Assembly (NCBI GenBank): GCA_003104935.1
Contig: PQAE01000007.1
Coordinates: 47,221 to 111,220 of the forward strand
DNA: 64,000 bases
From: Parcubacteria group bacterium
Lineage (GTDB): Bacteria; Patescibacteriota; Patescibacteriia; UBA1558; GWA2-36-10
Direction: 5' to 3'
The position numbers and the translations under genes were made by a program. Shown here piece after piece: positions 20,823 to 62,004 of the stretch (its first letter is position 1; the number at the start of each line of letters is the position of its first letter). The notes beneath the pieces are model-generated. The model had not been told where the DNA came from. It saw nothing but the letters and a program-made list of their open reading frames with translations, and ran no database searches.

Positions 20823-20823
20823 T

Positions 20824-28072: not shown

Positions 28073-29038
28073 ATGGAAATCAACAAACTCACTAGTCGCG
28101 CCATCCTAACCGCTGTCCAACAAGCGACTAATATTTTAGTTATCGCTCATAAAAAACCGGATGGTGATACTCTGGGTTCCAACCTAGCCTTTACCAAATA
28201 TCTGCTTAGTGTCGGTAAAAAATTTACCAGCTTTTGCCTACACCCGGCACCATCCCACCTAGCCTTTCTACCTAATAGCCATCTGATCAGTAATGATCAC
28301 CTCACCTTTAGCCAAACTTTTGACCTGGTTATTTTGCTGGATTCCAGTAATTTAGAATATGCCGGCGTTGACAAGCTCATGACCGCACTCCGGCCGGGTT
28401 ATAAAATAATTAATATTGACCACCATGTATCCAATACTATGTTTGGCGATATTAATCTGGTGATCTATGAAGCCTCTTCTACCGCCGAGGTGGTCTACCG
28501 TCTTTTTAAAGACTGGGACATAGACTGGAGTGCGGGTATCGCTTCTTGCCTGGCCTGCGGCATGATCACCGACACCGGCGGATTTAAAAATCCTGCTACC
28601 AACTATATTACACTGCTGGCCGCTTCCGATTTAAAAAGCAAAGGAGCAAATATCCATCAGATTACCAAACAAGCTCTAGGTAGTACAAAGCTCAATAATC
28701 TCCGTTTGTGGGGACGGGCTCTAGAGCGGCTCAGGGACGTGCCACACTATAATCTGATTTATACTTGGCTGACTGAACAGGATTTTACAGAATGCGCTAC
28801 GGATGAATCGGCCGTGGACGGACTGTCAAACTTTTTGCATATTATCAAGGAGGGAAAAATAATTATGGTTCTGCGCCAAAGCAAGGTCGATACCATCAAG
28901 GGGTCACTGCGCACTACCAGTAATATTGACCTGACAAAAATAGCGGAAATTTTCGGTGGCGGCGGACACAAAAAGGCCGCCGGTTTCAGCTTGTCAGGCC
29001 GGCTAGAATGTAATGATGGTCAGTTAATTATCAAATAG
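28073..29038 (+). CDS. nrnA: DHH/DHHA1 bifunctional oligoribonuclease / pAp phosphatase
   Basis: NIDHHVSNTMFGD (DHH) and GGGHKKAAGF (DHHA1 GGGH). Confidence 0.75.
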   Translation: MEINKLTSRAILTAVQQATNILVIAHKKPDGDTLGSNLAFTKYLLSVGKKFTSFCLHPAPSHLAFLPNSHLISNDHLTFSQTFDLVILLDSSNLEYAGVDKLMTALRPGYKIINIDHHVSNTMFGDINLVIYEASSTAEVVYRLFKDWDIDWSAGIASCLACGMITDTGGFKNPATNYITLLAASDLKSKGANIHQITKQALGSTKLNNLRLWGRALERLRDVPHYNLIYTWLTEQDFTECATDESAVDGLSNFLHIIKEGKIIMVLRQSKVDTIKGSLRTTSNIDLTKIAEIFGGGGHKKAAGFSLSGRLECNDGQLIIK

Positions 29039-29953
29039 GAAAATCTTACTTAATAATTCTTTCCTTAATTCCCAAGTATTGGCGTGTTTCAGCACACCGA
29101 GGTACGACGGTGCGTTATTTTTATTTACTAAGCGTAAAATTCTTCTCTTTGTCTTAGTTCGTAAAACTCTATAATGCGGCAAGGTCACATAGCCCAAAAA
29201 ATCTATACCTTGACTGACTTTTCTGATACTTATTTTCCCTGGGTGTATATCTAATCGTAATTGATCCTTTAAAAATGTGTTTAATTCTTTCAAAATATTT
29301 GCTAAATAACCTTTATCTTTATGCAAAATTATAAAATCGTCACAATAACGAATATAAAATTTCTGTTTTAACCCGTGTTTTACAAATTGATCTAATTCAT
29401 TTAGATAAATATTGCCAAAAAGCTGACTAGTTACATTGCCTAAGGGTAGTCCCTTATTATCTGCCGAAGAAAAACTATTAATTATTTTCTTAATTAACCA
29501 CATAACATCGACTTCTTCCACTCTATTCTCTAACAAAGCTAATAGTATCTTATGATCTATATTATTGAAAAACTTCTTGATATCACATTTTAAAGCATAG
29601 ATCTTTTGGCTATAATTCAGGCTCGCTCTAAGCACAAAATTTCCTAATCGTTTAACCCCCTTGTGCGTGCCTTTTCCTATCCGACATGAATAAGAATCAT
29701 ATATAAATTGCTTGTTAAAAATATGATATAATATTCTATATAAAGCTTGATGAACCACTCGATCTCGCACCCCTGCTTTATGGATATGCCTGAGCTTGGG
29801 GTCACAAACATAAAAGGCCTGATAAGGTGCGTGATTATAAGTCTTGTCCACTAATTCTTGGTGAAGTTGAAAAATATTATCTTCAAGATTAAACTCAAAT
29901 TCCTGTGTTTCCACCTTTCTGGTCTTACCCCTTTTAAATTCACGCCAGGCCAA
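29024..29953 (-). CDS. diversity-generating retroelement reverse transcriptase (DGR-1); N-terminus lacks an ATG in the conserved frame
   Basis: RT motifs YALKCDIKKFFNNIDH, GLPLGNVTSQLFGNIYLNELD (the DGR-type xGxxxSQ rather than QGxxxSP) and YIRYCDDFIIL; ~50% identical to the RT at 45002-45988. The ORF-track start is TTG. Confidence 0.85.
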   Translation of the reverse strand: MAWREFKRGKTRKVETQEFEFNLEDNIFQLHQELVDKTYNHAPYQAFYVCDPKLRHIHKAGVRDRVVHQALYRILYHIFNKQFIYDSYSCRIGKGTHKGVKRLGNFVLRASLNYSQKIYALKCDIKKFFNNIDHKILLALLENRVEEVDVMWLIKKIINSFSSADNKGLPLGNVTSQLFGNIYLNELDQFVKHGLKQKFYIRYCDDFIILHKDKGYLANILKELNTFLKDQLRLDIHPGKISIRKVSQGIDFLGYVTLPHYRVLRTKTKRRILRLVNKNNAPSYLGVLKHANTWELRKELLSKIFLFDN

Positions 29954-30369: not shown

Positions 30370-30385
30370 GCCCTTTATTTTTTGT

Positions 30386-45001: not shown

Positions 45002-45988
45002 CTACAAAGGAAAGTCTAAAAGGCCTTTTAACTTCATAGTATTACCGTAACCAAATAGCCCTAAATACGATTGTTTAGTAAATTCATTGTAGTTTTTTAA
45101 TTTGAGCCTGGTCAACATTCTTTTTTTACTTGTTGTCCTCAAAACACGATGATCTGTAAAATGTACCCACCCTAAAAAATCTATACCGGAATACAGGGTT
45201 TTAATAAAAACCTTATCGGGATGTAATTGTAATCGCAAATCATTATTTAAAAAATGTTTTATCACGCCCAAAATATTTTCTAACCATTTTTTGTCCTTAG
45301 ATAATATAACAAAATCATCGGCATATCGAATATAATATTTGGCTTTTAGCTTATGTTTTACAAACTGGTCAAATGTATTCATATAAACATTGACTAGTAG
45401 TTGTGATGTCAAATTTCCTAAAGGTAAACCTTTGTTATTGATGTGAAAACTATCAATCACTCTATTTAATAGCCATAAAATATTTTCATCAGCTATATAC
45501 TGACTTAAAATATCTATTAATATACTATGATCAATATTGGCAAAAAATTTCTTAATATCTCCTTTCAACACCCAAGCTGTTTTGGTATGATTTTGAGATG
45601 CTCGATAAGCAAAATTACAAAACTTGTTTATGGCCTTGTGAGTCCCTTTACCTAAACGGCAGGAATAAGAATCAGCAATAAATGTCGTGTCAAAAAAAGG
45701 ATACAAAACCCTATAGATAGCGTGATGTAATAGTCTATCGCGAACACTGGCCTTATGAATGTTTCTTGGTTTAGGGTCAGAAATATTGAAAGCCTGATAA
45801 TCCGAATGCCAATAAGTCTTATTTTTCAAATCACTATGTAGAGCTATAATATTACTCATTAAATCTAATTCAAATTCTTGGACATCCCGACGACTTCTTT
45901 TGCCTTTGATAAACTCCTGCCAGGCTAAAAGCAAATTTTCCAAAGAAATGATATAATCATAACTATAATTAAATTTAATTTTGCTCAT
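45002..45988 (-). CDS. diversity-generating retroelement reverse transcriptase (DGR-2)
   Basis: GLPLGNLTSQLLVNVYMNTFD (xGxxxSQ), YIRYADDFVIL; ATG start preceded by a G10-TATAAT element. Confidence 0.85.
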   Translation of the reverse strand: MSKIKFNYSYDYIISLENLLLAWQEFIKGKRSRRDVQEFELDLMSNIIALHSDLKNKTYWHSDYQAFNISDPKPRNIHKASVRDRLLHHAIYRVLYPFFDTTFIADSYSCRLGKGTHKAINKFCNFAYRASQNHTKTAWVLKGDIKKFFANIDHSILIDILSQYIADENILWLLNRVIDSFHINNKGLPLGNLTSQLLVNVYMNTFDQFVKHKLKAKYYIRYADDFVILSKDKKWLENILGVIKHFLNNDLRLQLHPDKVFIKTLYSGIDFLGWVHFTDHRVLRTTSKKRMLTRLKLKNYNEFTKQSYLGLFGYGNTMKLKGLLDFPL

Positions 45989-46049
45989 ATGACAGATTAT
46001 ACCCCCCCCCCGTCTATTACCAGTACTTCAAAAACTAAAAAGTGTTTAT

Positions 46050-46364: not shown

Positions 46365-46385
46365 ATTAGGAGAGAAACGAAGTAT

Positions 46386-46818: not shown

Positions 46819-46855
46819 CCTCATACATTACTGTATGAGGCTTCTCGTTTTTGTA
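46819..46855 (+). terminator. plus-strand rho-independent terminator
   Basis: GAAGCCTCATACATTACTGTATGAGGCTTC followed by TCGTTTTTG. Confidence 0.55.
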
Positions 46856-46924
46856 TAGCTACAAAGTCTAAGGTCAAAGGACTTAAGGGTAAGTCCTAAG
46901 AACCAAAGCACTAAGTGCTATATG

Positions 46925-47503
46925 TTACTTGCAGACCGCCGCGGGGTTGCCGTCGTTGAAGTAGCTGCCCAGGTAGTAGTAGTTCCAGTTCCACTGCTGG
47001 CCATCCCAGTAGAGATAGCGGACGCACAAGTCGCCGTAGGAGCTGCGGTAGATGGTACCCCAGAAGTAGGTGTACTTTCCTTTCCACTCCTCGGGAATGA
47101 ACTGGGGATTTTTCAGATACCAATCCAAGAGATTGGCATTGAAGACCGGCTGGCCCTGGAGCTCCTTACGGAGATCGTGGCCTATGATCCAGCGACCGTC
47201 CTTCTTCCTCTCGGAGAGGTAGAGGCTGATCTTGGTGGGATCAAACTCCAACTTCCCACCACGGATGTGCTCCTCGACCTTCCAGCCGTCAGGCACGAAG
47301 GGGTTGGCGTCGAGGTCGACGATGTGTTTGGTGACGACGATCTGGGCCAGGCCGTGAAGCAGGGCTTTGATGTCGATGAGTTGAGGGTACTGACCCAGCA
47401 AAGTGATTTCTGCCGGAGTAAAATCCTTCGCCTCCAGAGCGTTCATCAGCTGATGAGTCTGACCCTCAGAATAAGAAGACATGTCTTCTCTCCTTTTTGG
47501 CAC
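46925..47503 (-). CDS. DGR-2 target (variable) protein with a Tyr/Trp-rich C-terminus
   Basis: C-terminus ...CVRYLYWDGQQWNWNYYYLGSYFNDGNPAAVCK is encoded by VR2. Confidence 0.75.
   Translation of the reverse strand: MPKRREDMSSYSEGQTHQLMNALEAKDFTPAEITLLGQYPQLIDIKALLHGLAQIVVTKHIVDLDANPFVPDGWKVEEHIRGGKLEFDPTKISLYLSERKKDGRWIIGHDLRKELQGQPVFNANLLDWYLKNPQFIPEEWKGKYTYFWGTIYRSSYGDLCVRYLYWDGQQWNWNYYYLGSYFNDGNPAAVCK
46929..47050 (-). repeat. DGR-2 variable repeat (VR2)
   Basis: Covers the 3' end of the target ORF and differs from TR2 only at TR adenine positions. Confidence 0.85.
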
Positions 47504-50685: not shown

Positions 50686-51147
50686 TTAGGGGATTAGCTC
50701 AAACCAGCGGCAATTGGAAATGTCGTTGTTACAAGTATATTTTACTTTTCGCGTCGCTCCGGTGCTACTAGCTGTGGCTTCTATATTGGTCAGACAATCA
50801 GTGCCACAATCCAGATCATCGACAAAAACAGTATTAACTTCAAAACCACTGACCGTCATAGTGGCAAAAATGAAATTAGTCGGTTCGCGACGGAGTTGCA
50901 TGATCGCTTCACCTAAACCGGATTCCGAAGCGTAAAAAGCTTGAGTGGAATCCAAAAAAGATTTGGTACTGATCTGATTGTTATTAGCCGTCACCGCCGT
51001 AGAAATCGCGATGGTTAGTACCGCCGCCGATATTACCATAGCGGCTATGATCGCCGCGGCTCCGGATCTTTTGTGATTTGTTTTAAACATCTTAGCGAAT
51101 GCTGATAAAAGTCTGATAAGTTTGCTGCAAATATCTGAGAGGGTCAA
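50686..51147 (-). CDS. pilus-assembly PilX-like minor pilin, membrane-anchored
   Basis: KRSGAAAIIAAMVISAAVLTIAIS N-terminal helix; within the type IV pilus cluster. Confidence 0.4.
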   Translation of the reverse strand: MTLSDICSKLIRLLSAFAKMFKTNHKRSGAAAIIAAMVISAAVLTIAISTAVTANNNQISTKSFLDSTQAFYASESGLGEAIMQLRREPTNFIFATMTVSGFEVNTVFVDDLDCGTDCLTNIEATASSTGATRKVKYTCNNDISNCRWFELIP

Positions 51148-51625
51148 CGGTAGCGGCGGTGGTTAGTGTAAAACCTATCTCTACTCCTTTGTTCGCCACG
51201 CCGGCGTTATTGGTCAGACTCTGCAAAGTCAAACCCGAAACACTTATGTTGGACGAATTTAGTATCACTGGTGTGACACTGGACTGGGCCGGAAAACCGC
51301 CACCCTGATCGTCAGATTGGCGATAAACCAACTTGTCGGATTCCAAAGTGATGCTAAAACGTGAAGTACTGGAAGTATAAAATAATAATTTTTCTATTGC
51401 CGGAGAAACATCTTCCATATAATCCACATTATGCACGCGGTTGGCTATAAAATTCAAAATAAAACGGGCATTGTGGTTTACCGAGTCCGACGATTGTTGC
51501 ATCTTCTTGGCGTTATAAATATTAATCACCAAACTGCCGACGGTAATTAAAATAATGGCCGTAATGGAAAAATACATTATAGTTTCTATGAGAGTAAAGC
51601 CTTTTTTTATTTTCTTACCCTTCAT
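51092..51625 (-). CDS. prepilin-type N-terminal cleavage/methylation domain protein (pseudopilin)
   Basis: MKGKKIKKGFTLIETIMYFSITAIIL. Confidence 0.7.
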   Translation of the reverse strand: MKGKKIKKGFTLIETIMYFSITAIILITVGSLVINIYNAKKMQQSSDSVNHNARFILNFIANRVHNVDYMEDVSPAIEKLLFYTSSTSRFSITLESDKLVYRQSDDQGGGFPAQSSVTPVILNSSNISVSGLTLQSLTNNAGVANKGVEIGFTLTTAATVDPLRYLQQTYQTFISIR

Positions 51626-51626
51626 C

Positions 51627-53525
51627 TCAATTAATGCTATAACTGATGGTTACTTCCTCCAACACGGGCGCCAACAATTCCGCTGTGCTGGACATAAATA
51701 ATTTGTATCTAATATACCTTTGATTAACATGCTGGCTATAGTTTATATATTCATGAGCGCCGACGGTATAGTAAGTAGCCGCTGTGCCATTCGGCCCGGC
51801 ATAATTCCAGGGGCCGCCGATGTCGTTGCTGGTGGCCAATTGAAACTTCATAACGGTATTATCCGGCATGGTGCCGGTCCAAGATATCCAATTATAAACA
51901 GTTTGATTGCTACCGGTGTCGTAAGTCGATGACTCTAGAGTGCCGGCAACGGAATATCCGCAATTGGAAACCTGTGTCCAGATTATAAAAAATTCCTTTT
52001 GATTGCCGGAAGTAGCGGCATAAATCACCGAACAGTTAGCCGACATACCCAAAACAAAACCGTATAGATTAAAACCCGATATTTTAGTAATCGCCGCCGG
52101 GTTAGCAATATCAATAACTACCAATTCCTCGTCCAAAAAATTCGTGCCTAATAAAGCGTATTGACCGACAATTGCAAAAGAATGAACTGACTCCCCGACC
52201 TCATACGAGCCTAATAAAACCGGAGCGGATGGGTCAGTAATGTCAAAAACATAAAATTCAGGATAAGAACCGTTATTTTCCGTAGCTAAATAAGCCCGGG
52301 TACCCCGCACATTAACATCGGTAGCTTTGAGATTGCCCGATAAATTATATTGCCCCCGCGGCAACAAGTTGGCCGGGTTAGTAGCGTCTATTATTTGCAG
52401 TTCCTTGTCGCTATCTTGAGTAGCGATAAAGACGTTATTTTCCGCTAAATACAATTCCCAGGCATTATCATCGACGGAAATGCTATCTAACAACAGTGGA
52501 GCCGCTGGATTAGCCAGTGAAAAAGCATAGAGGTTAGCCCCCTGTACCACAAAAACCTGGGAGTTGTTCAATACTAAATCCCGGGCATCATCGTTTGAGG
52601 GTAGGTTATAGGTATAAATAATATGGGGATTCTGTCTATCAGAAACATCAACCACGGTTATTTCCGAATTATTTCCTCGGGTAGACAAATAGGCATAATT
52701 GCCCTGAGTCACTACCGAGGTGACTCCATCGCCGATATCCAAAGAAGAAATTAATACCGGACTGCCGATATTACTGACATCCAATATGTAAAACTCTGAA
52801 CCGGAGGGATTATTTTCCGTCACTAAATAGGCGATACCGTTAACCTCAAAAACATCGGTATCGTCAAAATTTCCCGGCGTATCAAAATATGCTGTGGTTG
52901 TGGCCTGGGTCCAATCAATATGACCGGCCGACAAGGTGGCTGTACCGGCAAAGGAAACATCAATACCACTGTCTTTAGTATAAAATTTAGTGGGATCGGA
53001 CCACTGGTTTTGACCCGCGCCGCCGGACCAGTCCGTCTGGATCCAACGAGTCGCCCCCCAGCGATACCGAAAATTCTCTAAAGCTACGCTTTTTTCTTGA
53101 CCAATGGCGCTGGGCCAGGTTATATCCACGGTTATTTTTTTGGTATCTGGATCGAGATAGCCACCCGTAGCAACTATCGCTCCGTGTACCTGACCATTAG
53201 TAGAACTAGCTCTATAAACATCACTGACTGTTAAAAGACGGGTGTATTTGCCATCAAGAAGCTCGCTACCCGAAGCCAGGTTCCAAGTACCGCCGCTAAC
53301 TACCGGATGGTATTGCCCGCTACTGAGGTTGGACCAGGAAATCAAATTAGCCGCCTCAATACCCTCGGTGGCGTCAAAAATTGCCTGTGTGCGTTCCTGA
53401 TTAAAACGGCGTAACTGAAAACTATGTCCGCTGATACTGATGGTTAGGACGATAATGACCGCCACAAAAGATATAGCCACCAACAATTCAATCAGTGAAA
53501 ATCCTTTTTTATTTTTACCGATCAT
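51627..53525 (-). CDS. large prepilin-type protein with a beta-propeller-like (LVIVD-repeat-like) domain; candidate tip adhesin
   Basis: MIGKNKKGFSLIELLVAISFVAVI followed by ~600 aa carrying repeated ...Y(A/L)...VVDVS... units. Confidence 0.6.
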   Translation of the reverse strand: MIGKNKKGFSLIELLVAISFVAVIIVLTISISGHSFQLRRFNQERTQAIFDATEGIEAANLISWSNLSSGQYHPVVSGGTWNLASGSELLDGKYTRLLTVSDVYRASSTNGQVHGAIVATGGYLDPDTKKITVDITWPSAIGQEKSVALENFRYRWGATRWIQTDWSGGAGQNQWSDPTKFYTKDSGIDVSFAGTATLSAGHIDWTQATTTAYFDTPGNFDDTDVFEVNGIAYLVTENNPSGSEFYILDVSNIGSPVLISSLDIGDGVTSVVTQGNYAYLSTRGNNSEITVVDVSDRQNPHIIYTYNLPSNDDARDLVLNNSQVFVVQGANLYAFSLANPAAPLLLDSISVDDNAWELYLAENNVFIATQDSDKELQIIDATNPANLLPRGQYNLSGNLKATDVNVRGTRAYLATENNGSYPEFYVFDITDPSAPVLLGSYEVGESVHSFAIVGQYALLGTNFLDEELVVIDIANPAAITKISGFNLYGFVLGMSANCSVIYAATSGNQKEFFIIWTQVSNCGYSVAGTLESSTYDTGSNQTVYNWISWTGTMPDNTVMKFQLATSNDIGGPWNYAGPNGTAATYYTVGAHEYINYSQHVNQRYIRYKLFMSSTAELLAPVLEEVTISYSIN

Positions 53526-54001
53526 AAATCAATCAGGCCTGAGGCCTCTATTTTTATTTCCTGAATTTGGTTATTGTCCGGGATGAAAAAAAGAGTGATT
53601 GTTCCGGTGTTGTTTGTCTCTCCGGTAAATTTGCCGAAGATCACGTCTGCCCCGCGCAAACTTAGGTCTTTAGCAAAGGTAGAGGTAGGTCTAAACACAG
53701 CTACTTTATCTAGATACCAAATTTTGTTGGTGGGATCGAGACTATCGTAGGTACTGCTGGCAAAAAGCGTATAGCTATTTTCTTCCAGATGCACTCCCCA
53801 GTCTTTGCCTCCGGCCGCCGCCGTAGCTAACTGCTGTGCCCGATACAAAACACTGGCTAAATTTTCCTTGCTGGTCACTAGTTGCTGATAGTATCGCCAA
53901 TGCTGATAGGTGGTAAAACCAAAGTAAGATATTATCCCTAATATAGCTATGACTACCAGTACTTCGATGATGCTAAATCCTCGATGTTTGATCATGCTCA
54001 A
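53522..54001 (-). CDS. prepilin-type pseudopilin
   Basis: MSMIKHRGFSIIEVLVVIAILGII. Confidence 0.7.
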   Translation of the reverse strand: MSMIKHRGFSIIEVLVVIAILGIISYFGFTTYQHWRYYQQLVTSKENLASVLYRAQQLATAAAGGKDWGVHLEENSYTLFASSTYDSLDPTNKIWYLDKVAVFRPTSTFAKDLSLRGADVIFGKFTGETNNTGTITLFFIPDNNQIQEIKIEASGLIDL

Positions 54002-55257
54002 TCCGCAAAGCTAAGAGTTAATTGGTACATCGGGCTAATCACTGAGACCGCGATAAAACCCACGGCCACACCTACAAGCAGTAGTAAAACCGGCTCGATG
54101 ATAGTAGATAAATTTGCCAAGGTGTTGGTCACCCGGTCCTCATAATACTCGCCGATTTTTGCTAAGATACTTTCCAGTTCTCCGGTCTTGGCTCCGACCT
54201 GGCAAAGCTGAATAGCTAGTGACGGGAATAAATTGGAACGCTCGCTCATGGTCTTGTCCAGGGGCTCTCCTTTTTCCAACTCCTTGGCCATGTCCAGCAC
54301 TGCCAACCGATATTTCATATTACCCAATGTCTTACCGACTATTTCCATCGAGGTGACAATCGCCAAACCAGCTCCTAATAGCGTATGTAGGTTGCTGGCA
54401 TATCTGGTGAGATTAATATCTTTGATAATCCGTCCAGCGATAGGCATTTTTAACAAAAAACTGTGTAATAATAACTTTGGTTTTGGCAGTTTAAAAATAA
54501 TTTTGAACAAAATAAACAAAATGACTAGGGCCAGCAGAATATAGATATAATAATTTCTGATAGTATTACTGATAAAGCGAACCGCCACTAACGTAAATGG
54601 TAATTTAACTCCGGCGTCTTCAAACATGGTAACTAATTGAGGGAAAACCATCGTGGCCAGAACCAAGCTGACCACCACTAAAGCGATTAAAACAATGCAG
54701 GGATACATCAGGGCGCCCAATACCTTGCTCTTTAGGGCCTTTTGCGATTTAAGGGTGATAGCCAAGCGCGCCAGAGTTTCTGGCAACATACCGGTATTTT
54801 CTCCCACTTCGACCGAAGCGATGATCATCTCGGAAAAAACTTTAGGATAAAGCTTCATACCTTTGGATAAGAGCTGTCCGTTTTCCACGTTGTCTTCCAG
54901 ATGCGCTAATATTTTTTTAAAATATTTATTTTTTGTTTCCTGAGCTAAAGTATGGAGTGCCGGCGCTAAAGGCAGACCGGCCTTAAGCATGGTGGAGAGG
55001 TTGTCCACAAACATCATCTCTTCAGTCAAGGAAACCCGGCTAAAAAATTCTCTCAGCCGTCCGACTCTTTTTTCATCCGTTTTTTTGACGGGCGGGTTGG
55101 GGTGCTTCTCCTCCTTGTCCGGCTTAGCAGCATGACGATTGTAAGGGGCCGGTGGCGCTTTGGGCGCGGCCTTGACCGGAACTTCTTTAGAGGTCTCGGC
55201 CTTTTTTTGAAGGTCGGTATCGTCGATCAGGTGGTGTTTAGTGTCTAAATATTCCAT
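53998..55257 (-). CDS. pilC: type IV pilus / type II secretion platform protein (GspF/PilC family)
   Basis: Two T2SSF-like repeats and three transmembrane segments; 419 aa; immediately downstream of the ATPase gene. Confidence 0.8.
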   Translation of the reverse strand: MEYLDTKHHLIDDTDLQKKAETSKEVPVKAAPKAPPAPYNRHAAKPDKEEKHPNPPVKKTDEKRVGRLREFFSRVSLTEEMMFVDNLSTMLKAGLPLAPALHTLAQETKNKYFKKILAHLEDNVENGQLLSKGMKLYPKVFSEMIIASVEVGENTGMLPETLARLAITLKSQKALKSKVLGALMYPCIVLIALVVVSLVLATMVFPQLVTMFEDAGVKLPFTLVAVRFISNTIRNYYIYILLALVILFILFKIIFKLPKPKLLLHSFLLKMPIAGRIIKDINLTRYASNLHTLLGAGLAIVTSMEIVGKTLGNMKYRLAVLDMAKELEKGEPLDKTMSERSNLFPSLAIQLCQVGAKTGELESILAKIGEYYEDRVTNTLANLSTIIEPVLLLLVGVAVGFIAVSVISPMYQLTLSFAD

Positions 55258-55258: not shown

Positions 55259-56992
55259 TTATTCTCGTTTGATGCTTAAGACTTCGTCGATAGTGGTCAT
55301 GCCCATCAGCGCTTTTTGCATACCGTCTTCAAAAATGGTGATCATGCCCTCTTCTTTGGCGATATCTTCAATATCCCCGGAGGAAGCGTTGTTGATTATT
55401 TTATGCTGGACACGATCGGTGTTTTCCAATATCTCTAAAACCGACAATCTCTTGCGATAGCCGGTACCGTTGCACTGATCACAACCCTTGCCCCGGTAAA
55501 AAGTCAGTTCGGCAAAAGATTTAAATTTATCTTCAATGATATTTAACTTCTTAAAACGCTCCAGCATTTCTTCCAGATTAAACTCCTTGCTCAAAACCTT
55601 GAGTTCATCTTTAGATAACATATAGGAATAAATGCAACCCTGACAAACACGACGCACCAATCTTTGAGCCAGCACCACATTTAAAGTCGAGGCTACTAGA
55701 TACGGCTCTACGCCCATATCCAGGAGACGTGGCGGGGCGCCGGCGGCATTGTTGGTATGCAAGGTGGACAAAACCAAATGTCCGGTCAAACCGGCGCGTA
55801 CGGAAATCTGAGCCGTGTCGCTGTCGCGGATTTCACCGATCATGATAATGTCCGGATCTTGACGAAGTAGGGCGCGCAGGCCGTTGACAAAGTCGTAACC
55901 GGCTTTGATGTTAACCTGAGTTTGATTAACCCGATTGATACCATATTCGATCGGATCTTCGATGGTACAAATATTAACGTCTTCCGTATTTAAAATGTTT
56001 AGCACGGCATAAAGGGTAGTGGTCTTGCCGGAACCGGTCGGTCCGACTACCAAAATCATGCCAAAAGGTTTTTTAATCTGACGGTCCATAATCTCAATGT
56101 GTCGATCGGTAAAACCGATATCGGACAAAGTCATATCCTGGGCTTCATCGGTCATCAGCCGCATCTCTACTTTCTCCCCATAAAAAGCCGGGATGACCGA
56201 AACGCGTACCGATTCCTCTTCTTCATCCACTTTAAAAGAAAAACGTCCGTCCTGGGGAACGCGATGTTCATCGGTCCGCAGATTGGCTAATATTTTAATG
56301 CGCGCAACCAAAGCATCGTGCACTGTGGTGGGTAATTCGATCTTATCCTGCAGTTCACCGTCCACCCGAAAACGCACCACGACCGCATCGGGCAACGCTT
56401 CAATGTGAATATCCGAAGCCTGCTCAAACATAGCCGCTTCTAAGATGGCATCAATTATTTTTATGATCGGCACTTCGGCCTTAACTGTCTTTTCCGCTTC
56501 GGTCTGGGGAAACTTAGTGGCTAAAATCTTGGTAATCTCCGCCTTCATGTCTTTTTTATACAGACGCGAGGCAAAGCGGTAACTTTTGTAATTAGTAATA
56601 TAAGGAACTACCGTCTTTTTAGTGGCTTTTTTAACCAGGGCGATATTTTCCTCGTTAATCGGATCGATAAAAGCTACGTTTATCTTTTTGCCCTTAACTT
56701 CAAAAGGTATAGCCCGCGCCTGACGGACGGTTTCATCGTCTAGCTCCTGCAACACTGTCATATCCATTTTATATTTGCGCAGGTTGACATAGGGGATCTT
56801 GAGATTATCCCCAATTAATTCATATAAATAACGCTCATTAAAAAAACCGCGCTCAATCAAGACTTCTTCAATGCCCCGGCGACGCCGGTTAGCGTTGTGT
56901 TCAGCATCTTTCCAGTCTTGGGCGCTGATGACCTTAGCCTTAATAAGGACTTCTTTTAATTTTTCCAGAGATATTGGCAATGTTGCCGCCAT
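55259..56992 (-). CDS. pilB: type IV pilus assembly ATPase (GspE/PilB family)
   Basis: Walker A VVGPTGSGKTTTLYA; Asp/His boxes; tetracysteine CQGC...CDQCNGTGY. Confidence 0.9.
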   Translation of the reverse strand: MAATLPISLEKLKEVLIKAKVISAQDWKDAEHNANRRRRGIEEVLIERGFFNERYLYELIGDNLKIPYVNLRKYKMDMTVLQELDDETVRQARAIPFEVKGKKINVAFIDPINEENIALVKKATKKTVVPYITNYKSYRFASRLYKKDMKAEITKILATKFPQTEAEKTVKAEVPIIKIIDAILEAAMFEQASDIHIEALPDAVVVRFRVDGELQDKIELPTTVHDALVARIKILANLRTDEHRVPQDGRFSFKVDEEEESVRVSVIPAFYGEKVEMRLMTDEAQDMTLSDIGFTDRHIEIMDRQIKKPFGMILVVGPTGSGKTTTLYAVLNILNTEDVNICTIEDPIEYGINRVNQTQVNIKAGYDFVNGLRALLRQDPDIIMIGEIRDSDTAQISVRAGLTGHLVLSTLHTNNAAGAPPRLLDMGVEPYLVASTLNVVLAQRLVRRVCQGCIYSYMLSKDELKVLSKEFNLEEMLERFKKLNIIEDKFKSFAELTFYRGKGCDQCNGTGYRKRLSVLEILENTDRVQHKIINNASSGDIEDIAKEEGMITIFEDGMQKALMGMTTIDEVLSIKRE

Positions 56993-57110: not shown

Positions 57111-58364
57111 TTAGTTCGGGGACTTTTCTAGTTTTAATTTTACTTCTTTTTCCTGACCTTTACTCAGAACTCTTAGAGTCACTGAATCGCCGATTTTCTT
57201 TTGACGAATTATATAAGCCAGAGTCTGACTGCCGTCACTTGTTAGCTTTTGACCATCAATACTTAAAATAATATCGTTCTCTACCAAACCGGCCTTATCC
57301 GCCGGCGAACCTGGAATAACCGCTAATTCGCCGGGGTTAATTCCACGCGCAATCAGTACTCCGTAGTCAACGCTTAAATTATTTTTATCTTTCAAGGCTT
57401 GATCGATCTGCACATAACGAATACCCAAATATGGTCGGAAAATCGAGCCGTATTGTTTGACCGAATCGACCACACCTTTGACAATACTGATCGGCAGGGC
57501 AAAACCGACATTTTCTGAACCCTGAGCCACAGCCACATTAACGCCGATTACTTTTCCCTGTAAGTCTAACAATGGCCCGCCGGAATTACCAGGGTTGATG
57601 GCGGCGTCAGTTTGAATTACTTGGTCCAAATTTTCAGAACTACCTCCGTCGCCGGCCACAATAGAGCGGGACAAGCCTGATACTACTCCCACGGAAATTG
57701 AATTTCTAAATTGCCCCAGAGCATTACCGATGGCGATCACACTCTGACCGAGCTTAAGTTGGTCCGAATTTCCTAACTCCAGATACGGTGTATCTTTTTT
57801 GTCTATTTTTACAATAGCAACATCCAGAAAAGGATCGCGCGCTAAGACGGTCGCTGTATATTTTTTATTGTCGCTAGTGATGACAGTATATTCGGCCTGC
57901 GTATCAGACACTACATGTTTATTGGTTACCACCAGACCATCGGAAGAAACAAAAAATCCTGAGCCGCTACCGATCTCCTGTTTTTGCGTGCCATTTTGCC
58001 GATACTGTGGAATCTGCATACCAAAAAAATCTCCGAACGGACTACTATTATCAAAATATTGCTCGATCACCGGTACATCTTTACTGGCCACGATAGACAC
58101 AACGGCTGGATTGACCTTAGCCACCACACCCTCCACACTAAGGTCTCCGCCCATAATCTTATTACCCAAAACTTTATTTAGGTCGACTGATTTAGAGGAA
58201 TTATTTTTGCCCGCGGCAGAAGAGTCGGTTATATATTGATTGGCAAAATTGCCAAAGATACTGGTACGATGATCATAGACATACCAGCTCGCCGCCCCAA
58301 AAACCAGGGTGCTAACTAGGATATTTAGACCCACCAGCATTAGAATATTTTTTACGTTTTTCAT
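57111..58364 (-). CDS. HtrA/DegP family serine protease with a PDZ domain
   Basis: TNKHVV (His), catalytic Asp in DVAIVKI, GNSGGPLLD (Ser); C-terminal PDZ. Confidence 0.85.
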   Translation of the reverse strand: MKNVKNILMLVGLNILVSTLVFGAASWYVYDHRTSIFGNFANQYITDSSAAGKNNSSKSVDLNKVLGNKIMGGDLSVEGVVAKVNPAVVSIVASKDVPVIEQYFDNSSPFGDFFGMQIPQYRQNGTQKQEIGSGSGFFVSSDGLVVTNKHVVSDTQAEYTVITSDNKKYTATVLARDPFLDVAIVKIDKKDTPYLELGNSDQLKLGQSVIAIGNALGQFRNSISVGVVSGLSRSIVAGDGGSSENLDQVIQTDAAINPGNSGGPLLDLQGKVIGVNVAVAQGSENVGFALPISIVKGVVDSVKQYGSIFRPYLGIRYVQIDQALKDKNNLSVDYGVLIARGINPGELAVIPGSPADKAGLVENDIILSIDGQKLTSDGSQTLAYIIRQKKIGDSVTLRVLSKGQEKEVKLKLEKSPN

Positions 58365-58522
58365 ATTTAAAATATGCTATGTTTTCTATAATATATATTT
58401 TTTCCAAAAAAATCAAGACTGGCTGTTTATTATTTTATTACGAACAAAAGCCAATATTTATTTCAAAATAAAAAGGGACTAAATACCCCCTAAAATATTA
58501 TTATTTTTTAAAAAAGACTTGG

Positions 58523-60475
58523 TTAAAAAAACTGAAGATAAGCCAAAAGGCGATTGGTCCCGGGCCAGCGTAGCCCTGATAATAGACCGGTCATAAAACG
58601 AGAAATATTATTATACTCTCCGGCCAAAATATCATATTTACTTAGTGAGGCCAGTCCTAGATTCGACCAAGATTTTGCCAGGACAAACAAATGATTAAAG
58701 GCCAAACTAAGTTGACGGGTATTGCCAGCAATTTTGGAATTGAAATCGAATTTTACTAATCTATTTTGATCACCCTGCTCATTCCTACTGACGCCGCCCT
58801 GATATTGGATATAAACAATTTCCTTATAGGACGGCCTATTATCGGTATTGGCGTCGGCCGTGACGGTGGCGCTACCGGTCGTACCGCCGCCAGTAACTGA
58901 CAGTGTATGGGTATGAGACTGGCTGGCGATGGTAGTACCGTCAGCATCTCCTCCTAATTCATATTTAGCTGAGGTGCCGGCACTGACTGTAAAACTATGA
59001 CTATGGGAATTAATAGTATGAGTATGACCGGTTCCCGCCGAGTGGGTATGAGTAGCGGCTCCACCAGTGCCATTGATTTCACTATCGGCATTAGCTCCCT
59101 TGATAAATTTATCATTTAAATTAGGACAACCATTATTACCGTCACAAAGTACCCAACCACTGGGAATACTAGCGGTAGTGCCTGACCACATGGCAATAAT
59201 GTTGTTTGGATAATTAGCGCTACCGGTGTCATTTTGAATAATATTTAATTTGTAAAATGGAGGCTGACCATCGCCATTAGCTAATACGCCCACTCCGGAA
59301 ACCTCGGTAGCGGTTTGATTACCGCTTGATATGGTGTGTGTATGACTAGTGCGAGCTCCTCCAGCTACAGTAGAAGAAATTAAACTTCCGCCAACACTGG
59401 CTGATCCAGTGGTTCCAGTATGGGTATGAGCACTTTCGGTATGGGTATGACCGTTGTCCGTATGAGAATGATCATTTGCTGACCCGCCGGTTCCGCCACC
59501 GTTTCCGCTAGCCGCCGCTCCCTTAAGAAATCTATTGCCACTCTGACGTGACCAGCTAGCGGGTAGAGTATCAGAATCAAATAGAGCCCAAGCGCCGTTT
59601 GGTACACCGGCGGCCGTGCCATTTGATTGTATCCAGATTACTTCCGTATAAGGCGGATCATTGGATATGGCGCCTAAGTCGGCAGACGCCGCCACATTAC
59701 TACCCGAGGCATTAGCGGTAGTGATGGTTTGAGTATGAGCATTGGCCGCTCCCCCTATTCCCTCGGCAGTGTCATAAGTACCAGAGGCTGCTCCGGTGGT
59801 GCCGGTATGAGTATGGGCAATAGTGTGAGTATGCGTCGCAGAAGTATGGGTGTGAGTAGTATTACCGCCGGCTACAGCCGAAGGATTAGCCGTGGTACCC
59901 TCCAAATAATAAGCATCTAGATCCGTGACTCTGGTCCAGCCCGAGGGTATATTGATATTGGTAGAAGGCCAGGCGACGATGACTCCCGAGGGCACAGTCG
60001 CCGCCGGCGTACTGGCCACCGGAATAGTCGGCACTACATAACTATAACAATTATTAACTGCGTAGCTATTGCCCTGTTTTACAATATAATATCCCGTATC
60101 ATTACTATCACTACTTAGAGTGGGGTCCTTTATCGCCGCCGGCAAATAAGTCGCTAAATCACCTAAAATATCCGCCTTGGCGATCGGTTCAGTACTAGTG
60201 CAAGCACTGGTGCCGGAGGTACTGCCGCCTCTTTTCACGATCATATAGGGCGTATCCGCCGCCAGACTGCTTAAGCTCGCCGGAAAACCGTAGTTATCAA
60301 TGGCATACTGTTGGATAGCTCTTTGGATAGCCAGCACATCGGTGGTACGCACCGAATTCCAAGCCTCACCCATCCGTCTGGCCGGATTCATCGCCCGAAT
60401 CATAATAGTAGCGGTGATAGCTAACACGGCCACGACCAATATTATTTCCAAAAGCGTAAACCCTTTTTTAAGCAT
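58523..60475 (-). CDS. prepilin-type protein with a long Gly/Thr/His-rich repetitive domain (HTHT repeats)
   Basis: MLKKGFTLLEIILVVAVLAI; repeats NTTHTHTSATHTHTIAHTHTGTTG / HSHTDNGHTHTESAHTHTGTTG / ATHTHSAGTGHTHTINSHSHS. Confidence 0.7.
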   Translation of the reverse strand: MLKKGFTLLEIILVVAVLAITATIMIRAMNPARRMGEAWNSVRTTDVLAIQRAIQQYAIDNYGFPASLSSLAADTPYMIVKRGGSTSGTSACTSTEPIAKADILGDLATYLPAAIKDPTLSSDSNDTGYYIVKQGNSYAVNNCYSYVVPTIPVASTPAATVPSGVIVAWPSTNINIPSGWTRVTDLDAYYLEGTTANPSAVAGGNTTHTHTSATHTHTIAHTHTGTTGAASGTYDTAEGIGGAANAHTQTITTANASGSNVAASADLGAISNDPPYTEVIWIQSNGTAAGVPNGAWALFDSDTLPASWSRQSGNRFLKGAAASGNGGGTGGSANDHSHTDNGHTHTESAHTHTGTTGSASVGGSLISSTVAGGARTSHTHTISSGNQTATEVSGVGVLANGDGQPPFYKLNIIQNDTGSANYPNNIIAMWSGTTASIPSGWVLCDGNNGCPNLNDKFIKGANADSEINGTGGAATHTHSAGTGHTHTINSHSHSFTVSAGTSAKYELGGDADGTTIASQSHTHTLSVTGGGTTGSATVTADANTDNRPSYKEIVYIQYQGGVSRNEQGDQNRLVKFDFNSKIAGNTRQLSLAFNHLFVLAKSWSNLGLASLSKYDILAGEYNNISRFMTGLLSGLRWPGTNRLLAYLQFF

Positions 60476-60804
60476 GAATACAAAGCCTTTTAATTCTTTC
60501 TCTAAGGGGTCTCAACCCTGCTTCATTATAACATTTTTTAAAATAAACAAAAAATCATCCCAAAAAATCTCAGAGAGATGATTTTTTGTTTCCTTTTTAT
60601 AGAAACAAATAATGAGCTAGATTAACCCCAGATCTTAACAGCAGTAATGAACAATATAGCAACGAAGACTACCACCACTAAAAGCTCATAGACGTTTACT
60701 TTGGCTTTCATTTTTCCCCTCTTAATGATTATAAATATATTATAGCACAATTTTTAACAAAACAGAATAGTTCCGGACACCAGAAAACTTCCGGCGGCGA
60801 TATT

Positions 60805-62004
60805 CTATCCGAAAGACAACCACTGATGTTTAAAGATTAGAAGCAAACCGATGAGAATCATCAACGCGCCGCCGATCAGACTGGAATATTTGGCATATTT
60901 ATTACTCAGACCTGTAGCTCGCAGGGTAATCATGGCGCCGGCAAAAACCAAAAGATCGTCCATCATGAAAAATAATATATAAAGTAATATGTATGAATAA
61001 TATTCCCAGCCGCTCAGATGATTTATGGCTAAAACCTGGACGTACACCGCGGGAAAACCGGCGGAACAGACCAGTTCCAGCAAATTAACGGCACACGCTA
61101 GGACGATAATGCCTAAGATTGCCAAAACGTATTTTTCCCTAAGCGCCGCTTTTTTCAAACCTTCAAAAATGCGGCGGCGGGATGGCGCTTGGGTAATTTT
61201 ACAAGTACCGCGGCTCTGGTACCAAGATTTGATGTTCCAGGAACCGCCGCCTATGGCCACCAGACCGATGATGATTCGGACCCAGAATATAAACCCCAAA
61301 AATAAAATTATATTTAGCCAGGCGGCCATAAATAAAAAATAGACTACTGCTGAGGTGACCAAAAAAACTACGCCTAAAATCCACATACGCCGCCTATCTT
61401 TCAATCCGATCAACAGAGAGATTAAGAATATCAGGGCCCACATGGCGCAGGGATTAAAACCGTCTAAAATTCCCAGAACAATGGTCAGCGCCGGCAAAGA
61501 TAAATTATTTAATTCGATGTTTCCTATCCTCGGCAAACTTGATAAGGCCTTATTGGGGTCAGGTATCTGCTCGGAAGAGAGCGAATCATTGCTTTTCCTG
61601 AGGGCGTTTTGGATTAAATTTTCAATCTGTATTCCTGTAGTTTCCGCACTTAAAAACCCGGCAATATATTGGTCCCCGATCACTAAAAATGGCACCCCTG
61701 ACACATTGGCCTGCAATCGCTGGCCAAAATCCATCAGTAATTTTATGTTATCCTGGCTTTGGCTGACCTCAAAACGCTGGATATTGATCGCCGCGCCATA
61801 TTTTTTTTCCAGCTGGTCCAGAAAATAACCCTCCTTTATGCAGTGAGGACAAGTCTGGCTGTGAAAAAAATAAACTTCTAGAGGCACTCCAGCTGAAGCT
61901 GTAATCGGCGTCAGGCAGAATAAAAAAACTAAAGCGATTATTATTTTTTTTAGGCCAAACATAAAAATTATTTTTATATTACTTGCAAGGATACGAATAA
62001 CCAA
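60805..62004 (-). CDS. thioredoxin-fold CxxC domain fused to a CcdA/DsbD-like transmembrane domain (thiol:disulfide interchange)
   Basis: HSQTCPHCIKEGYFL (CxxC) plus LGILDGFNPCAMWALIFLISLL (DsbD transmembrane Cys). Confidence 0.7.
   Translation of the reverse strand: MVIRILASNIKIIFMFGLKKIIIALVFLFCLTPITASAGVPLEVYFFHSQTCPHCIKEGYFLDQLEKKYGAAINIQRFEVSQSQDNIKLLMDFGQRLQANVSGVPFLVIGDQYIAGFLSAETTGIQIENLIQNALRKSNDSLSSEQIPDPNKALSSLPRIGNIELNNLSLPALTIVLGILDGFNPCAMWALIFLISLLIGLKDRRRMWILGVVFLVTSAVVYFLFMAAWLNIILFLGFIFWVRIIIGLVAIGGGSWNIKSWYQSRGTCKITQAPSRRRIFEGLKKAALREKYVLAILGIIVLACAVNLLELVCSAGFPAVYVQVLAINHLSGWEYYSYILLYILFFMMDDLLVFAGAMITLRATGLSNKYAKYSSLIGGALMILIGLLLIFKHQWLSFG

What the first reader, a model, noticed from the sequence alone, without database searches (positions are those of the whole stretch)
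58523..60475. Prepilin with a long His-Thr (HTHT) and Gly-Thr repetitive domain
After a canonical class III signal (KKGFTLLEI) the protein carries three blocks of H-T-H-T-x-x-x-H-T-H-T repeats embedded in G/T/S-rich low-complexity sequence (NTTHTHTSATHTHTIAHTHTGTTG; DHSHTDNGHTHTESAHTHTGTTG; ATHTHSAGTGHTHTINSHSHS). Alternating His is a metal-chelating pattern (Ni/Zn/Cu). The gene lies 1.5 kb from a thioredoxin-DsbD fusion and in the same window as a copper cluster. The repeats also make this a likely hypervariable surface fibre.
Basis: partly seen in the sequence, partly recalled or inferred. Interest (0 to 1): 0.55.

Follow-up and report, generated by a model that had tools for sequence, protein, structure and literature searches.

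The report
Pilin carrying a phage-fibre metal needle
A tiny uncultured (Parcubacteria/CPR) bacterium encodes a type IV pilus subunit whose His-Thr "repeats" are really three copies of a phage tail-fibre tip domain, predicted to fold as one unit and inferred to be held together by buried metal ions, most likely a host- or surface-binding adhesin rather than a metal-scavenging or hypervariable repeat protein.

Summary
The ORF is real: window 58523-60475, minus strand, 650 aa, identical in an independent assembly. It has four parts.

- **Pilin (aa 1-150):** a complete PilA-like type IV pilin with the signal MLKKG|FTLLE.
- **Linker:** a short Pro/Thr-rich stretch.
- **Triple module (aa 160-565):** three diverged tandem copies (31-36% identity) of a ~130-aa phage tail-fibre tip module. 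Each copy carries four HxH motifs in register.
- **Tail:** an orphan 85-aa C-terminus.

The module matches PHROG tail proteins, the trimeric fibre tips C24 (6OV6), Pa223 and T4 gp37, and as a whole unit Pas28/Pas29 of Actinoplanes phage phiAsp2.

The same three-copy unit occurs in at least 542 viral contigs and in Patescibacteria surface proteins. All 24 His positions are 74-100% conserved. A subfamily changes one "layer" in repeats 1 and 3 together (His6 to His3Cys).

AlphaFold gives pTM 0.80 for the unit alone. I infer a single-chain pseudo-trimer with about four axial structural metal sites, displayed on a pilus as an adhesin.

The metal-homeostasis and repeat-hypervariability readings are not supported. 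There are no DNA repeats, and the copper cluster lies 35 kb away. I rate it a new variant of known kinds (modular pilin; HxH fibre tip).

The parts
58523..60475 (-). Whole gene: modular type IV prepilin, 650 aa
   Evidence: ORF. Identical protein P0001. Identical DNA in an independent assembly.
60386..60475 (-). Class III signal peptide (MLKKG|F, Glu at +5) and hydrophobic alpha1N helix, aa 1-30
   Evidence: TIGR02532 scores 23.8 bits, above its cut-off. AF2 predicts a helix at 8-28.
60026..60475 (-). Complete PilA-like pilin module, aa 1-150 (Cys92 and Cys143 are candidates for a disulfide)
   Evidence: 36-41% identity, end to end, to 145-176-aa Patescibacteria pilins named PilA by their sources. 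Also hits GspG and geopilin.
59999..60025 (-). Pro/Thr/Ala-rich linker, aa 151-159 (PTIPVASTPAA)
   Evidence: It replaces the C-terminal 'ISVTR' end of the stand-alone pilins in alignment A4. pLDDT is low here.
59606..59998 (-). Repeat 1 of the fibre-tip module, aa 160-290. HxH at 208/210, 215/217 and 221/223; degenerate H247-x-Q249.
   Evidence: pLDDT is above 90 except in the 225-246 loop.
59216..59605 (-). Repeat 2, aa 291-420. HxH at 336/338, 343/345, 350/352 and 378/380.
58781..59215 (-). Repeat 3, aa 421-565. HxH at 476/478, 484/486, 491/493 and 521/523. Carries the tail-collar-like motif IAMWSGTTASIPSGWVLCDGNNGC.
   Evidence: phrog_5795 E=1.6e-38. PDB 9qgo, 6ov6 and 9nxk. Pfam Collar only 15.1 bits.
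58523..58780 (-). Orphan C-terminal tail, aa 566-650, plus stop codon. Function unknown.
   Evidence: No homologue among 229 relatives and no frameshifted remnant of the domains that relatives carry here. pLDDT below 50. GC about 0.36-0.43 against 0.43-0.54 in the rest of the gene.
60728..60757 (-). Promoter-like site upstream of the gene (TTAAAA-18-TATAAT)
   Evidence: Consensus scan only. The number of sites does not exceed the shuffles.
58473..58491 (-). Terminator-like hairpin plus T-run, 32 nt after the stop codon
   Evidence: Consensus scan only.
57111..58364 (-). Downstream HtrA-type serine protease with PDZ domain
   Evidence: Trypsin_2 E=5e-36 and PDZ_2.
55259..56992 (-). PilB/GspE-type assembly ATPase
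   Evidence: T2SSE E=9e-124 and MshEN.
53998..55257 (-). PilC/GspF platform protein
   Evidence: T2SSF E=2e-49.
51092..54001 (-). Three further prepilin genes (159 aa; 632 aa with an LVIVD beta-propeller; 177 aa). Probably the minor-pilin set.
   Evidence: N_methyl and TIGR02532 hits, LVIVD E=1e-19. Class III motifs found by scan.

Best explanation
The gene encodes a modular type IV pilin. A complete PilA-like pilin module (aa 1-150) anchors the protein in a type IV filament built by the adjacent PilB/PilC machinery. A short linker joins it to a ~400-aa module of phage origin.

That module consists of three diverged tandem copies of a tail-fibre tip domain that is normally a homotrimer of three separate chains. 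I infer the following mechanism:
- The three copies pack around a pseudo-threefold axis into one rigid needle.
- Each copy contributes one HxH pair to each of four axial layers.
- This gives about four buried metal sites (His6, octahedral; in this protein one site is His5Gln), probably Fe2+ or Zn2+ as in phage fibres.
- The His residues are therefore structural staples, not a chelating surface.
- The three hypervariable loops, one per repeat (aa ~225-246, 355-377 and 497-519), would sit together at the distal end and form the ligand-binding tip.

A single-chain version makes sense on a pilin, which enters the filament as a monomer.

Proposed function: an adhesin displayed at the tip of, or sparsely along, the pilus, used by this probably episymbiotic Parcubacteria cell to bind a host cell or surface polymer.

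Shown here: the pilin signal and pilin homology, the pilus-gene neighbourhood, the three homologous repeats, homology to phage fibre tips, His conservation, and a confident single-unit fold prediction.

Inferred: the pseudo-threefold geometry, metal binding and metal identity, display on the pilus, and the adhesin role.
For: **Pilin**
- TIGR02532 scores above its cut-off.
- There is end-to-end homology to small Patescibacteria PilA-like pilins.
- PilB, PilC and three more prepilins lie directly downstream on the same strand.

**Module**
- phrog_5795 'tail protein' E=1.6e-38, plus three other tail-fibre PHROGs.
- Sequence hits to the trimeric fibres 9qgo (9e-7), 6ov6 C24 (3e-6) and 9nxk.
- A whole-unit structural match to phiAsp2 Pas28 and Pas29 (TMq 0.68 and 0.75, E~1e-28). 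Both lie in that phage's tail gene block.

**Repeats**
- hhalign probability 99.9% with all four HxH motifs in register.

**One packed unit**
- AF2 of aa 160-565 alone gives pLDDT 85.8 and pTM 0.80.

**Metal sites shared between repeats**
- The 24 His positions are 74-100% conserved.
- 133 of 221 modules keep all 24.
- About 31 modules switch layer 2 in repeats 1 and 3 together: R1 HxH to HxP or HxN, R3 HxH to CxP or CxT, with R2 unchanged. The result is a His3Cys set.
- One module has lost layer 2 in all three repeats at once.

**Precedents**
- Modular pilins act as tip adhesins (PMC8179133).
- A beta-propeller-bearing minor pilin is needed for host binding in Saccharibacteria (PMC11623550).
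- T4P trigger episymbiosis (PMC9894109).
- T4 gp37 HxH motifs bind seven Fe ions (cited in PMC11705849).
Against: - No coordinates were available, so His-His geometry and the threefold arrangement were never measured.
- The coordinated layer-2 switch may reflect one or a few evolutionary events in a single clade.
- A pilin folds outside the cytoplasm, where Fe2+ or Zn2+ loading is less obvious than for phage fibres assembled in the cytoplasm.
- One site is degenerate (Q249).
- The 85-aa C-terminal tail is unexplained and may indicate a truncated or decaying distal end. Close relatives carry an additional C-terminal domain after the module instead.
- No prepilin peptidase was found among the window ORFs I scanned.
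- No expression or localisation data exist.
- This exact pilin fusion is a singleton in a 5.8-billion-protein database.
Confidence: 0.6

Rival explanations
1. Cell-surface anchor only. The prepilin N-terminus serves only as an export and membrane-anchor device (pseudopilin-like), and the protein is never polymerised into a long pilus. The phage-derived needle would work at the cell surface, as in the paralogue that uses a plain transmembrane anchor.
For: - The closest relatives of the module, including paralogue P0007 in the same MAG, have an N-terminal TM segment instead of a pilin. They sit in a conserved non-pilus operon with dockerin- and Big_13-domain proteins.
- The gene looks monocistronic, with its own promoter-like and terminator-like sites.
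- A 500-aa appendage is bulky for filament packing.
Against: - The pilin part is a complete PilA-type globular pilin, not just a signal.
- It lies two genes upstream of pilB and pilC on the same strand.
- Bulky modular pilins are known to be incorporated into filaments (PMC8179133).
Confidence: 0.2
2. One reading: a metal-chelating surface fibre (Ni, Zn, Cu or Fe). Exposed alternating His residues would capture or buffer metal ions for uptake or detoxification.
For: - 23 His residues lie in HxH-type motifs.
- In another lineage a pilin-fused homologue (P0040) is followed by a HupE/UreJ_2 membrane protein, and P0058 has that domain fused in front of the module.
- A copper-resistance cluster exists in the window.
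Against: - The His positions are fixed, in register, inside a confidently folded domain homologous to phage fibre tips, where such His residues are buried structural ligands.
- Phage homologues in at least 542 viral contigs have no reason to scavenge metal.
- The copper genes are 35 kb away.
- The HupE association is seen in only one locus type.
- No metal transporter lies next to this gene.
Confidence: 0.08
3. A decaying or chimeric gene. The fusion is a recent accident or an assembly chimera, and the protein is non-functional.
For: - The fusion is a singleton.
- The orphan C-terminal tail has low GC and no homologue.
- One His ligand is lost (Q249).
Against: - Two assemblies agree base for base over 8 kb.
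- The 650-codon ORF is intact.
- 23 of 24 ligand positions and all core motifs are retained at 52-69% identity to the Patescibacteria homologues (P0002-P0016).
- A pilin fusion arose independently in P0040, which has a different pilin and a different spacer.
Confidence: 0.05

Closest known systems
C24 of a Bizionia argentinensis prophage (PDB 6OV6), T4 gp37 long-tail-fibre needle tip (2XGF) and the Pa223 tail fibre (9NXK)
   Same: - Sequence similarity to the module: E 3e-6 to C24, 30-32% identity over about 120-160 residues.
- The same motifs occur: IPSGW.LCDG...F..G at the start, HxH motifs, and a PPYY..I.YI-like closing strand.
- HxH pairs bind axial Fe in gp37 (PMC11705849).
- C24 is described as a receptor-binding tip (PMC11821841).
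   Different: - Those are homotrimers with one module per chain and are part of virions.
- Here three diverged modules lie in one chain, attached to a pilin, in a cellular pilus locus.
Pas28 and Pas29 of Actinoplanes phage phiAsp2, and hundreds of stand-alone ~420-450-aa proteins in IMG/VR contigs
   Same: - They share the same single-chain three-copy unit with 12 HxH motifs (TMq 0.68-0.75 over about 440 columns; 31-41% identity).
- Pas29 was annotated as a possible receptor-recognising protein with HXHY motifs.
   Different: - They are phage proteins without a pilin or signal peptide.
- Many carry other distal domains, such as Ig_Rha78A_N or DUF5047.
- I found no paper describing the three-in-one architecture.
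Modular type IV pilins: S. sanguinis PilB (vWA) and PilC (lectin); TM7x PilX2 (beta-propeller)
   Same: - A pilin module, a short linker, then a bulky functional module not specific to pili.
- They are proposed or shown to be tip adhesins (PMC8179133, PMC11623550).
- The window also has a beta-propeller pilin (51627-53525).
   Different: - The grafted module here is a phage fibre tip. None of the modules named in the passages of PMC8179133 that I read is a phage fibre domain, but I did not check its full architecture list (Dataset S1).
- The pilin part here resembles major-type PilA pilins rather than the minor pilins of the locus.
T4 gp12 short tail fibre receptor-binding domain and the Pfam Phage Tail Collar domain (PF07484)
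   Same: The collar-like motif precedes a His-ligated metal site. From my own knowledge, gp12 binds Zn through His445 and His447 of three chains. There are weak hits to Collar and phrog_4591 at aa 426-447.
   Different: The Collar hit is below Pfam's threshold (15.1 against 24 bits) and covers only about 20 residues. gp12 is a knitted homotrimer.
PAAR-repeat spike tip proteins (for example 6P22 chain D)
   Different: There is no sequence relationship. PAAR is much smaller and is not fibre-derived.

Membership tests
Type IV pilin (class III signal peptide protein) | Short leader ending in Gly, Phe or Met at +1, Glu at +5 | tested here: met
   MLKKG|FTLLE. TIGR02532 scores 23.8 bits against a cut-off of 16.3.
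Type IV pilin (class III signal peptide protein) | Pfam N_methyl (PF07963) at its gathering score | tested here: inconclusive
   18.5 bits against a cut-off of 21.2, E=0.0014. The motif is present by eye.
Type IV pilin (class III signal peptide protein) | Long hydrophobic N-terminal helix followed by a globular pilin domain | tested here: met
   AF2 helices at 8-28 and 31-62. 36-41% identity across the whole length of 145-176-aa PilA-like pilins.
Type IV pilin (class III signal peptide protein) | Encoded with type IV filament machinery (assembly ATPase, platform protein, other pilins) | tested here: met
   PilB, PilC and three prepilins lie at 51.1-57.0 kb on the same strand.
Type IV pilin (class III signal peptide protein) | Cleavage and N-methylation by a prepilin peptidase, and polymerisation into a filament | not testable with these tools
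   No Peptidase_A24 gene was found among the window ORFs scanned. This needs biochemistry or EM.
HxH metal-binding phage fibre tip (T4 gp37 needle / C24-like) | Sequence or profile similarity to solved or curated members | tested here: met
   phrog_5795 at 1.6e-38. 9qgo at 9e-7 and 6ov6 at 3e-6. Foldseek probability 1.0 to 6ov6.
HxH metal-binding phage fibre tip (T4 gp37 needle / C24-like) | Conserved HxH pairs at fixed positions | tested here: met
   11 HxH motifs against 0.85 expected. The 24 positions are 74-100% His in the family.
HxH metal-binding phage fibre tip (T4 gp37 needle / C24-like) | Homotrimer of three separate chains around a threefold axis | tested here: not met
   Three tandem diverged copies lie in one chain. 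The unit is predicted as one body, with pTM 0.80 as a monomer. It works like a trimer but is not one.
HxH metal-binding phage fibre tip (T4 gp37 needle / C24-like) | Octahedral His6 coordination of Fe or Zn on the axis | not testable with these tools
   No model coordinates or metal data are available. The only support is indirect: the cross-repeat, same-layer switch to His3Cys.
HxH metal-binding phage fibre tip (T4 gp37 needle / C24-like) | Component of a virion tail | tested here: not met
   The context is cellular: a pilus locus, HtrA and MscL. Homologues in true phage contigs exist.
Pfam Phage Tail Collar domain (PF07484) | Score at or above the gathering threshold | tested here: not met
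   15.1 bits against 24. Only profile positions 2-21 of 57 are matched.
Modular pilin (sensu Raynaud et al. 2021) | N-terminal pilin module linked to an extra domain that is not specific to pilus biology | tested here: met
   Complete pilin, linker and phage fibre module. Definition taken from PMC8179133.
His-rich metal storage or chaperone proteins (Hpn-like, His tails) | Disordered or low-complexity His runs with poorly conserved positions | tested here: not met
   The His residues sit in a confidently folded domain (pLDDT mostly 83-98 at the motifs, against about 50-68 in the variable loops) at conserved, aligned positions.
Repeat-mediated (slippage) hypervariable surface gene | Near-identical tandem DNA repeats within the gene | tested here: not met
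   TRF finds only a 21-nt unit x2.6 at 78% and a 9-nt unit x2.1 at 90% (score 31). Other repeats are 14-21 nt at 69-93%. The protein repeats are only 31-36% identical.

The most novel reading that the evidence does not exclude
Phages and Patescibacteria share an undescribed protein architecture. It is a trimeric, metal-stapled tail-fibre needle rewritten as a single chain with three diverged repeats and about four axial His6 (or His3Cys) sites. Patescibacteria have domesticated it as a cell-surface device. In this genome it is grafted onto a type IV pilin, producing a pilus tipped with a phage-type receptor-binding needle that the episymbiont uses to catch its host.
Probability: 0.35. Interest if true: 0.7.

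Novelty: new variant of a known kind. Interest (0 to 1): 0.55.

Why it matters
How ultrasmall CPR/Patescibacteria recognise and hold their hosts is largely unknown. In the few cultured Saccharibacteria, type IV pili and large modular minor pilins are implicated (PMC9894109, PMC11623550).

This gene offers a concrete candidate adhesin for the uncultured Parcubacteria. It also suggests that host recognition hardware has moved between phages and episymbionts.

Separately, the single-chain three-repeat form of an HxH fibre tip is widespread: at least 542 viral contigs and 492 clusters (at 50% identity) at E<1e-30. I found no description of it. It would be:
- a natural 'single-chain trimer' that should be easy to express as a monomer;
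- a good system for studying metal-stapled beta-needles;
- a possible scaffold for engineered receptor-binding proteins.

It also shows that His-Thr 'repeats' in raw sequence should not be read as metal-homeostasis domains by default.

Tried and rejected
- **DNA-level repeats and slippage.** TRF and the repeat finder found only short imperfect matches. Rejected.
- **Link to the copper cluster or DsbD.** The cluster is 35 kb away. The upstream neighbour has only weak thioredoxin-like hits and no similarity to the window's DsbD_2 protein. Rejected as functional evidence.
- **Frameshift hiding a conserved C-terminal domain.** tblastn with relatives' tails against the window found nothing.
- **Homologues of the 85-aa tail.** None were found among 229 family members.
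- **Other fusions of this pilin with the module.** Searches with aa 1-164 and aa 1-228 returned mostly small pilins of 145-197 aa and no other pilin-module fusion.
- **GTDB genome scan.** The first attempt failed for lack of a conserved pattern. The second used over-specific patterns and found only one locus, Patescibacteria UBA1406. No taxonomic census came out of it.
- **Pa223 preprint.** It does not mention His or metal. The C24 paper is not held in the library.
- **Direct geometric test of His sites.** This was impossible because model coordinates are not exposed.
- **DGR targeting of this gene.** The window's DGR repeats map elsewhere.
Full report
**1. Observation**

The ORF at 58523..60475 is on the minus strand and encodes 650 aa. 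It equals a hypothetical protein of a 'Parcubacteria group bacterium' MAG (P0001). An independent Logan assembly of SRR5381729 carries the same 7,953 bp without a single difference, so a collapsed or expanded repeat is unlikely.

The quoted motifs are all present. There are 11 HxH motifs, against 0.85 expected by shuffling and a maximum of 6 in 20,000 shuffles.

At the DNA level there are no meaningful repeats. TRF reports a 21-nt unit x2.6 at 78% and a 9-nt unit x2.1 at 90%. The other matches are 14-21-nt imperfect copies of the His-Thr codons.

**2. Anatomy**

*Pilin module (aa 1-150).* The N-terminus MLKKG|FTLLE passes TIGR02532 but falls just short of Pfam N_methyl. The first ~150 residues align end to end, at 36-41% identity, with complete 145-176-aa Patescibacteria pilins that their sources call PilA. 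Where those proteins end ('ISVTR'), this one continues with a Pro/Thr/Ala linker.

*Three repeats (aa 160-565).* There are three copies of a ~130-aa unit: R1 160-290, R2 291-420 and R3 421-565.
- They are 31-36% identical.
- Profile-profile comparison of the three repeat alignments gives probability 99.9% and E 1e-31 to 1e-37.
- All four HxH motifs of each repeat are in register.

*C-terminal tail (aa 566-650).*
- It has no homologue among 229 relatives and no frameshifted remnant behind it.
- It has low pLDDT.
- Its GC content is lower than that of the rest of the gene.
- It remains unexplained.

**3. What the repeat is**

Sequence and fold evidence points to a phage tail-fibre tip domain.
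- PHROGs gives 'tail protein' phrog_5795 at E=1.6e-38 and three more tail-fibre families.
- PDB sequence search gives the trimeric fibres 9qgo, 6ov6 and 9nxk. 6ov6 is C24 of a Bizionia argentinensis prophage, described as a long-tail-fibre receptor-binding tip resembling T4 gp37 (PMC11821841). 9nxk is the Pa223 fibre.
- In gp37, HxH pairs of the three chains bind seven axial iron ions (as summarised in PMC11705849).
- Pfam's Tail Collar domain is hit only below threshold.

**4. The three-copy unit is a family**

- The full-length search found 707 homologues, which almost always match aa ~160-560 as one block.
- The exhaustive representative search found 492 clusters at E<1e-30.
- A scan of IMG/VR found at least 542 viral contigs, and the 80 loci kept encode essentially the whole unit.
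- Many members are stand-alone ~420-450-aa proteins that begin directly with the R1 motif.
- One such contig, L006, has a large terminase and a portal next to the gene.
- In the cultured Actinoplanes phage phiAsp2, Pas28 and Pas29 both carry the unit (BFVD TMq 0.68 and 0.75). They lie in the tail block, and Pas29 is annotated as a possible receptor-recognising protein with HXHY motifs.
- The closest relatives (52-69% identity) include named Patescibacteria proteins (Falkowbacteria, the same Parcubacteria MAG) and mostly carry an N-terminal TM anchor. Two checked examples, the paralogue P0007 in the same MAG and P0005, sit in a conserved cellular operon with dockerin- and Big_13-domain proteins.
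- Only one other pilin fusion was seen, P0040. It has a different pilin and a 370-aa spacer, so it arose independently.
- Searches with the pilin part, or with the pilin-R1 junction, found no further fusions.

**5. Evidence for a single-chain pseudo-trimer with shared metal sites**

- AlphaFold2 predicts aa 160-565 at pLDDT mostly above 90 within the full protein.
- On its own, the unit gives pLDDT 85.8 and pTM 0.80. This means the relative positions of the three repeats are confidently defined, as expected for one packed body rather than beads on a string.
- The 24 His positions are 74-100% conserved, and 133 of 221 modules keep all 24.
- In about 31 modules the second 'layer' changes together in two repeats. 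R1 goes from H-x-H to H-x-P (H-x-N in one module), R3 goes from H-x-H to C-x-P or C-x-T, and R2 keeps H-x-H. This leaves three His and one Cys, a typical tetrahedral set.
- One module has lost that layer in all three repeats.
- Such same-layer, cross-repeat coupling is what a shared axial site predicts. It may, however, stem from few evolutionary events.
- In the query, one ligand of layer 4 is Gln (Q249).
- The geometry itself could not be measured because coordinates are not exposed.

**6. Variable parts**

Column entropy peaks (above 3 bits) in one loop per repeat, between the third and fourth HxH: aa ~230-246, 360-377 and 500-519. The same stretches have the lowest pLDDT. I infer that they form the distal, ligand-binding end of the needle. 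Variation is therefore by substitution in loops, not by repeat number.

**7. Context**

- The gene has promoter-like and terminator-like sites of its own, though these come from consensus scans only.
- Downstream on the same strand lie HtrA, PilB, PilC and three more prepilins. One of these is a 632-aa pilin with an LVIVD beta-propeller.
- In Saccharibacteria TM7x a beta-propeller-bearing minor pilin (PilX2) is needed for efficient host binding (PMC11623550), and T4P trigger episymbiosis (PMC9894109).
- Modular pilins, in which a pilin carries a grafted functional module, are widespread and are thought to sit at pilus tips (PMC8179133).

**8. Interpretation**

The best reading is a modular type IV pilin that displays a phage-derived, metal-stapled, single-chain needle as an adhesin (confidence about 0.6). 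The pilin and the phage-fibre homology are near certain. The pseudo-trimer and metal sites are likely. The adhesin role is inferred.

Rivals:
- The pilin part acts only as an anchor (0.2).
This is kept alive only by HupE/UreJ fusions or neighbours in another lineage.
- A decaying or chimeric gene (0.05).

**9. Novelty**

Both parent kinds are known: modular pilins and HxH fibre tips. The combination, and the three-in-one form of the fibre tip, were not found in the literature searches I could run. I rate it a new variant of a known kind, with interest 0.55.

Noticed in passing
window 45002-47503: A diversity-generating retroelement. It has an RVT_1 reverse transcriptase ORF at 45002..45988 (-) and a 125-nt repeat pair, 46383-46507 (template) and 46926-47050 (variable), found. 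All 13 mismatches within the repeat fall on adenines of the first copy when read on the minus strand. The variable copy is the 3' end of ORF 46925..47503 (-), a 192-aa protein with no Pfam hit.
   Followed up: partly
window 29024-30965: A second reverse transcriptase ORF (29024..29953, -, RVT_1 E=1.6e-22) sits next to another imperfect 126-nt repeat pair, 30386-30511 and 30840-30965 (84%). This is probably a second DGR.
   Followed up: no
window 7490-9197: Two further direct repeat pairs: 8091-8217 with 9071-9197 (127 nt, 91%) and 7490-7546 with 8752-8808 (57 nt, 95%). Their nature is unknown.
   Followed up: no
window 51627-53525 (-): A second large modular prepilin (632 aa) carries an LVIVD-repeat beta-propeller. 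This is reminiscent of the beta-propeller minor pilin PilX2 needed for host binding in Saccharibacteria (PMC11623550).
   Followed up: partly
proteins P0010, P0011, P0013, P0031, P0034, P0042 and others; loci L087 630-8671, L089 8001-14674: Patescibacteria homologues of the module start with a TM segment followed by a conserved 'SGWPQIWxNPxFPP' motif. They head a conserved operon: a ~175-aa protein, a ~200-aa protein, a ~350-aa dockerin-like protein, a ~280-aa protein and a ~585-aa Big_13 protein. This is an uncharacterised surface system.
   Followed up: partly
L003 5792-9591; L088 2575-5478: The independently pilin-fused homologue P0040 is followed by a HupE/UreJ_2 membrane protein. P0058 has a HupE_UreJ_2 domain fused N-terminal to the module. 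This could mean metal delivery to the His sites outside the cell, or merely a membrane anchor.
   Followed up: partly
family alignment A3 and 221 modules (positions equivalent to aa 217, 484 and 486 of the query): A subfamily of about 31 modules replaces the His6 set of layer 2 by His3Cys through simultaneous changes in repeats 1 and 3. Another group of about 17 modules couples H336N with loss of H521.
   Followed up: partly
window 58523-58780 (-): The last 85 residues of the protein have no detectable homologue, low predicted confidence and lower GC than the rest of the gene. Close relatives instead carry an additional C-terminal domain of about 130-200 aa after the module.
   Followed up: partly
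L006 3627-10154: In one viral contig the stand-alone three-copy module gene lies between the large terminase and the portal gene, next to a DNA polymerase exonuclease-like ORF, rather than in a tail gene block.
   Followed up: no
window 19290-23712 (-): A compact copper-resistance cluster: cupredoxin-like protein, HMA-DsbD_2 fusion, CopA-type P-type ATPase and a CsoR-type repressor. It is unrelated to the pilin by distance.
   Followed up: partly
window 60805-62004 (-): The upstream neighbour has a signal or TM segment, a CPHC motif with weak thioredoxin and glutaredoxin hits, and a polytopic membrane domain with no family assignment. It might oxidise the pilin's candidate disulfides (C92-C143, C444-C450), but this is speculation.
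   Followed up: partly
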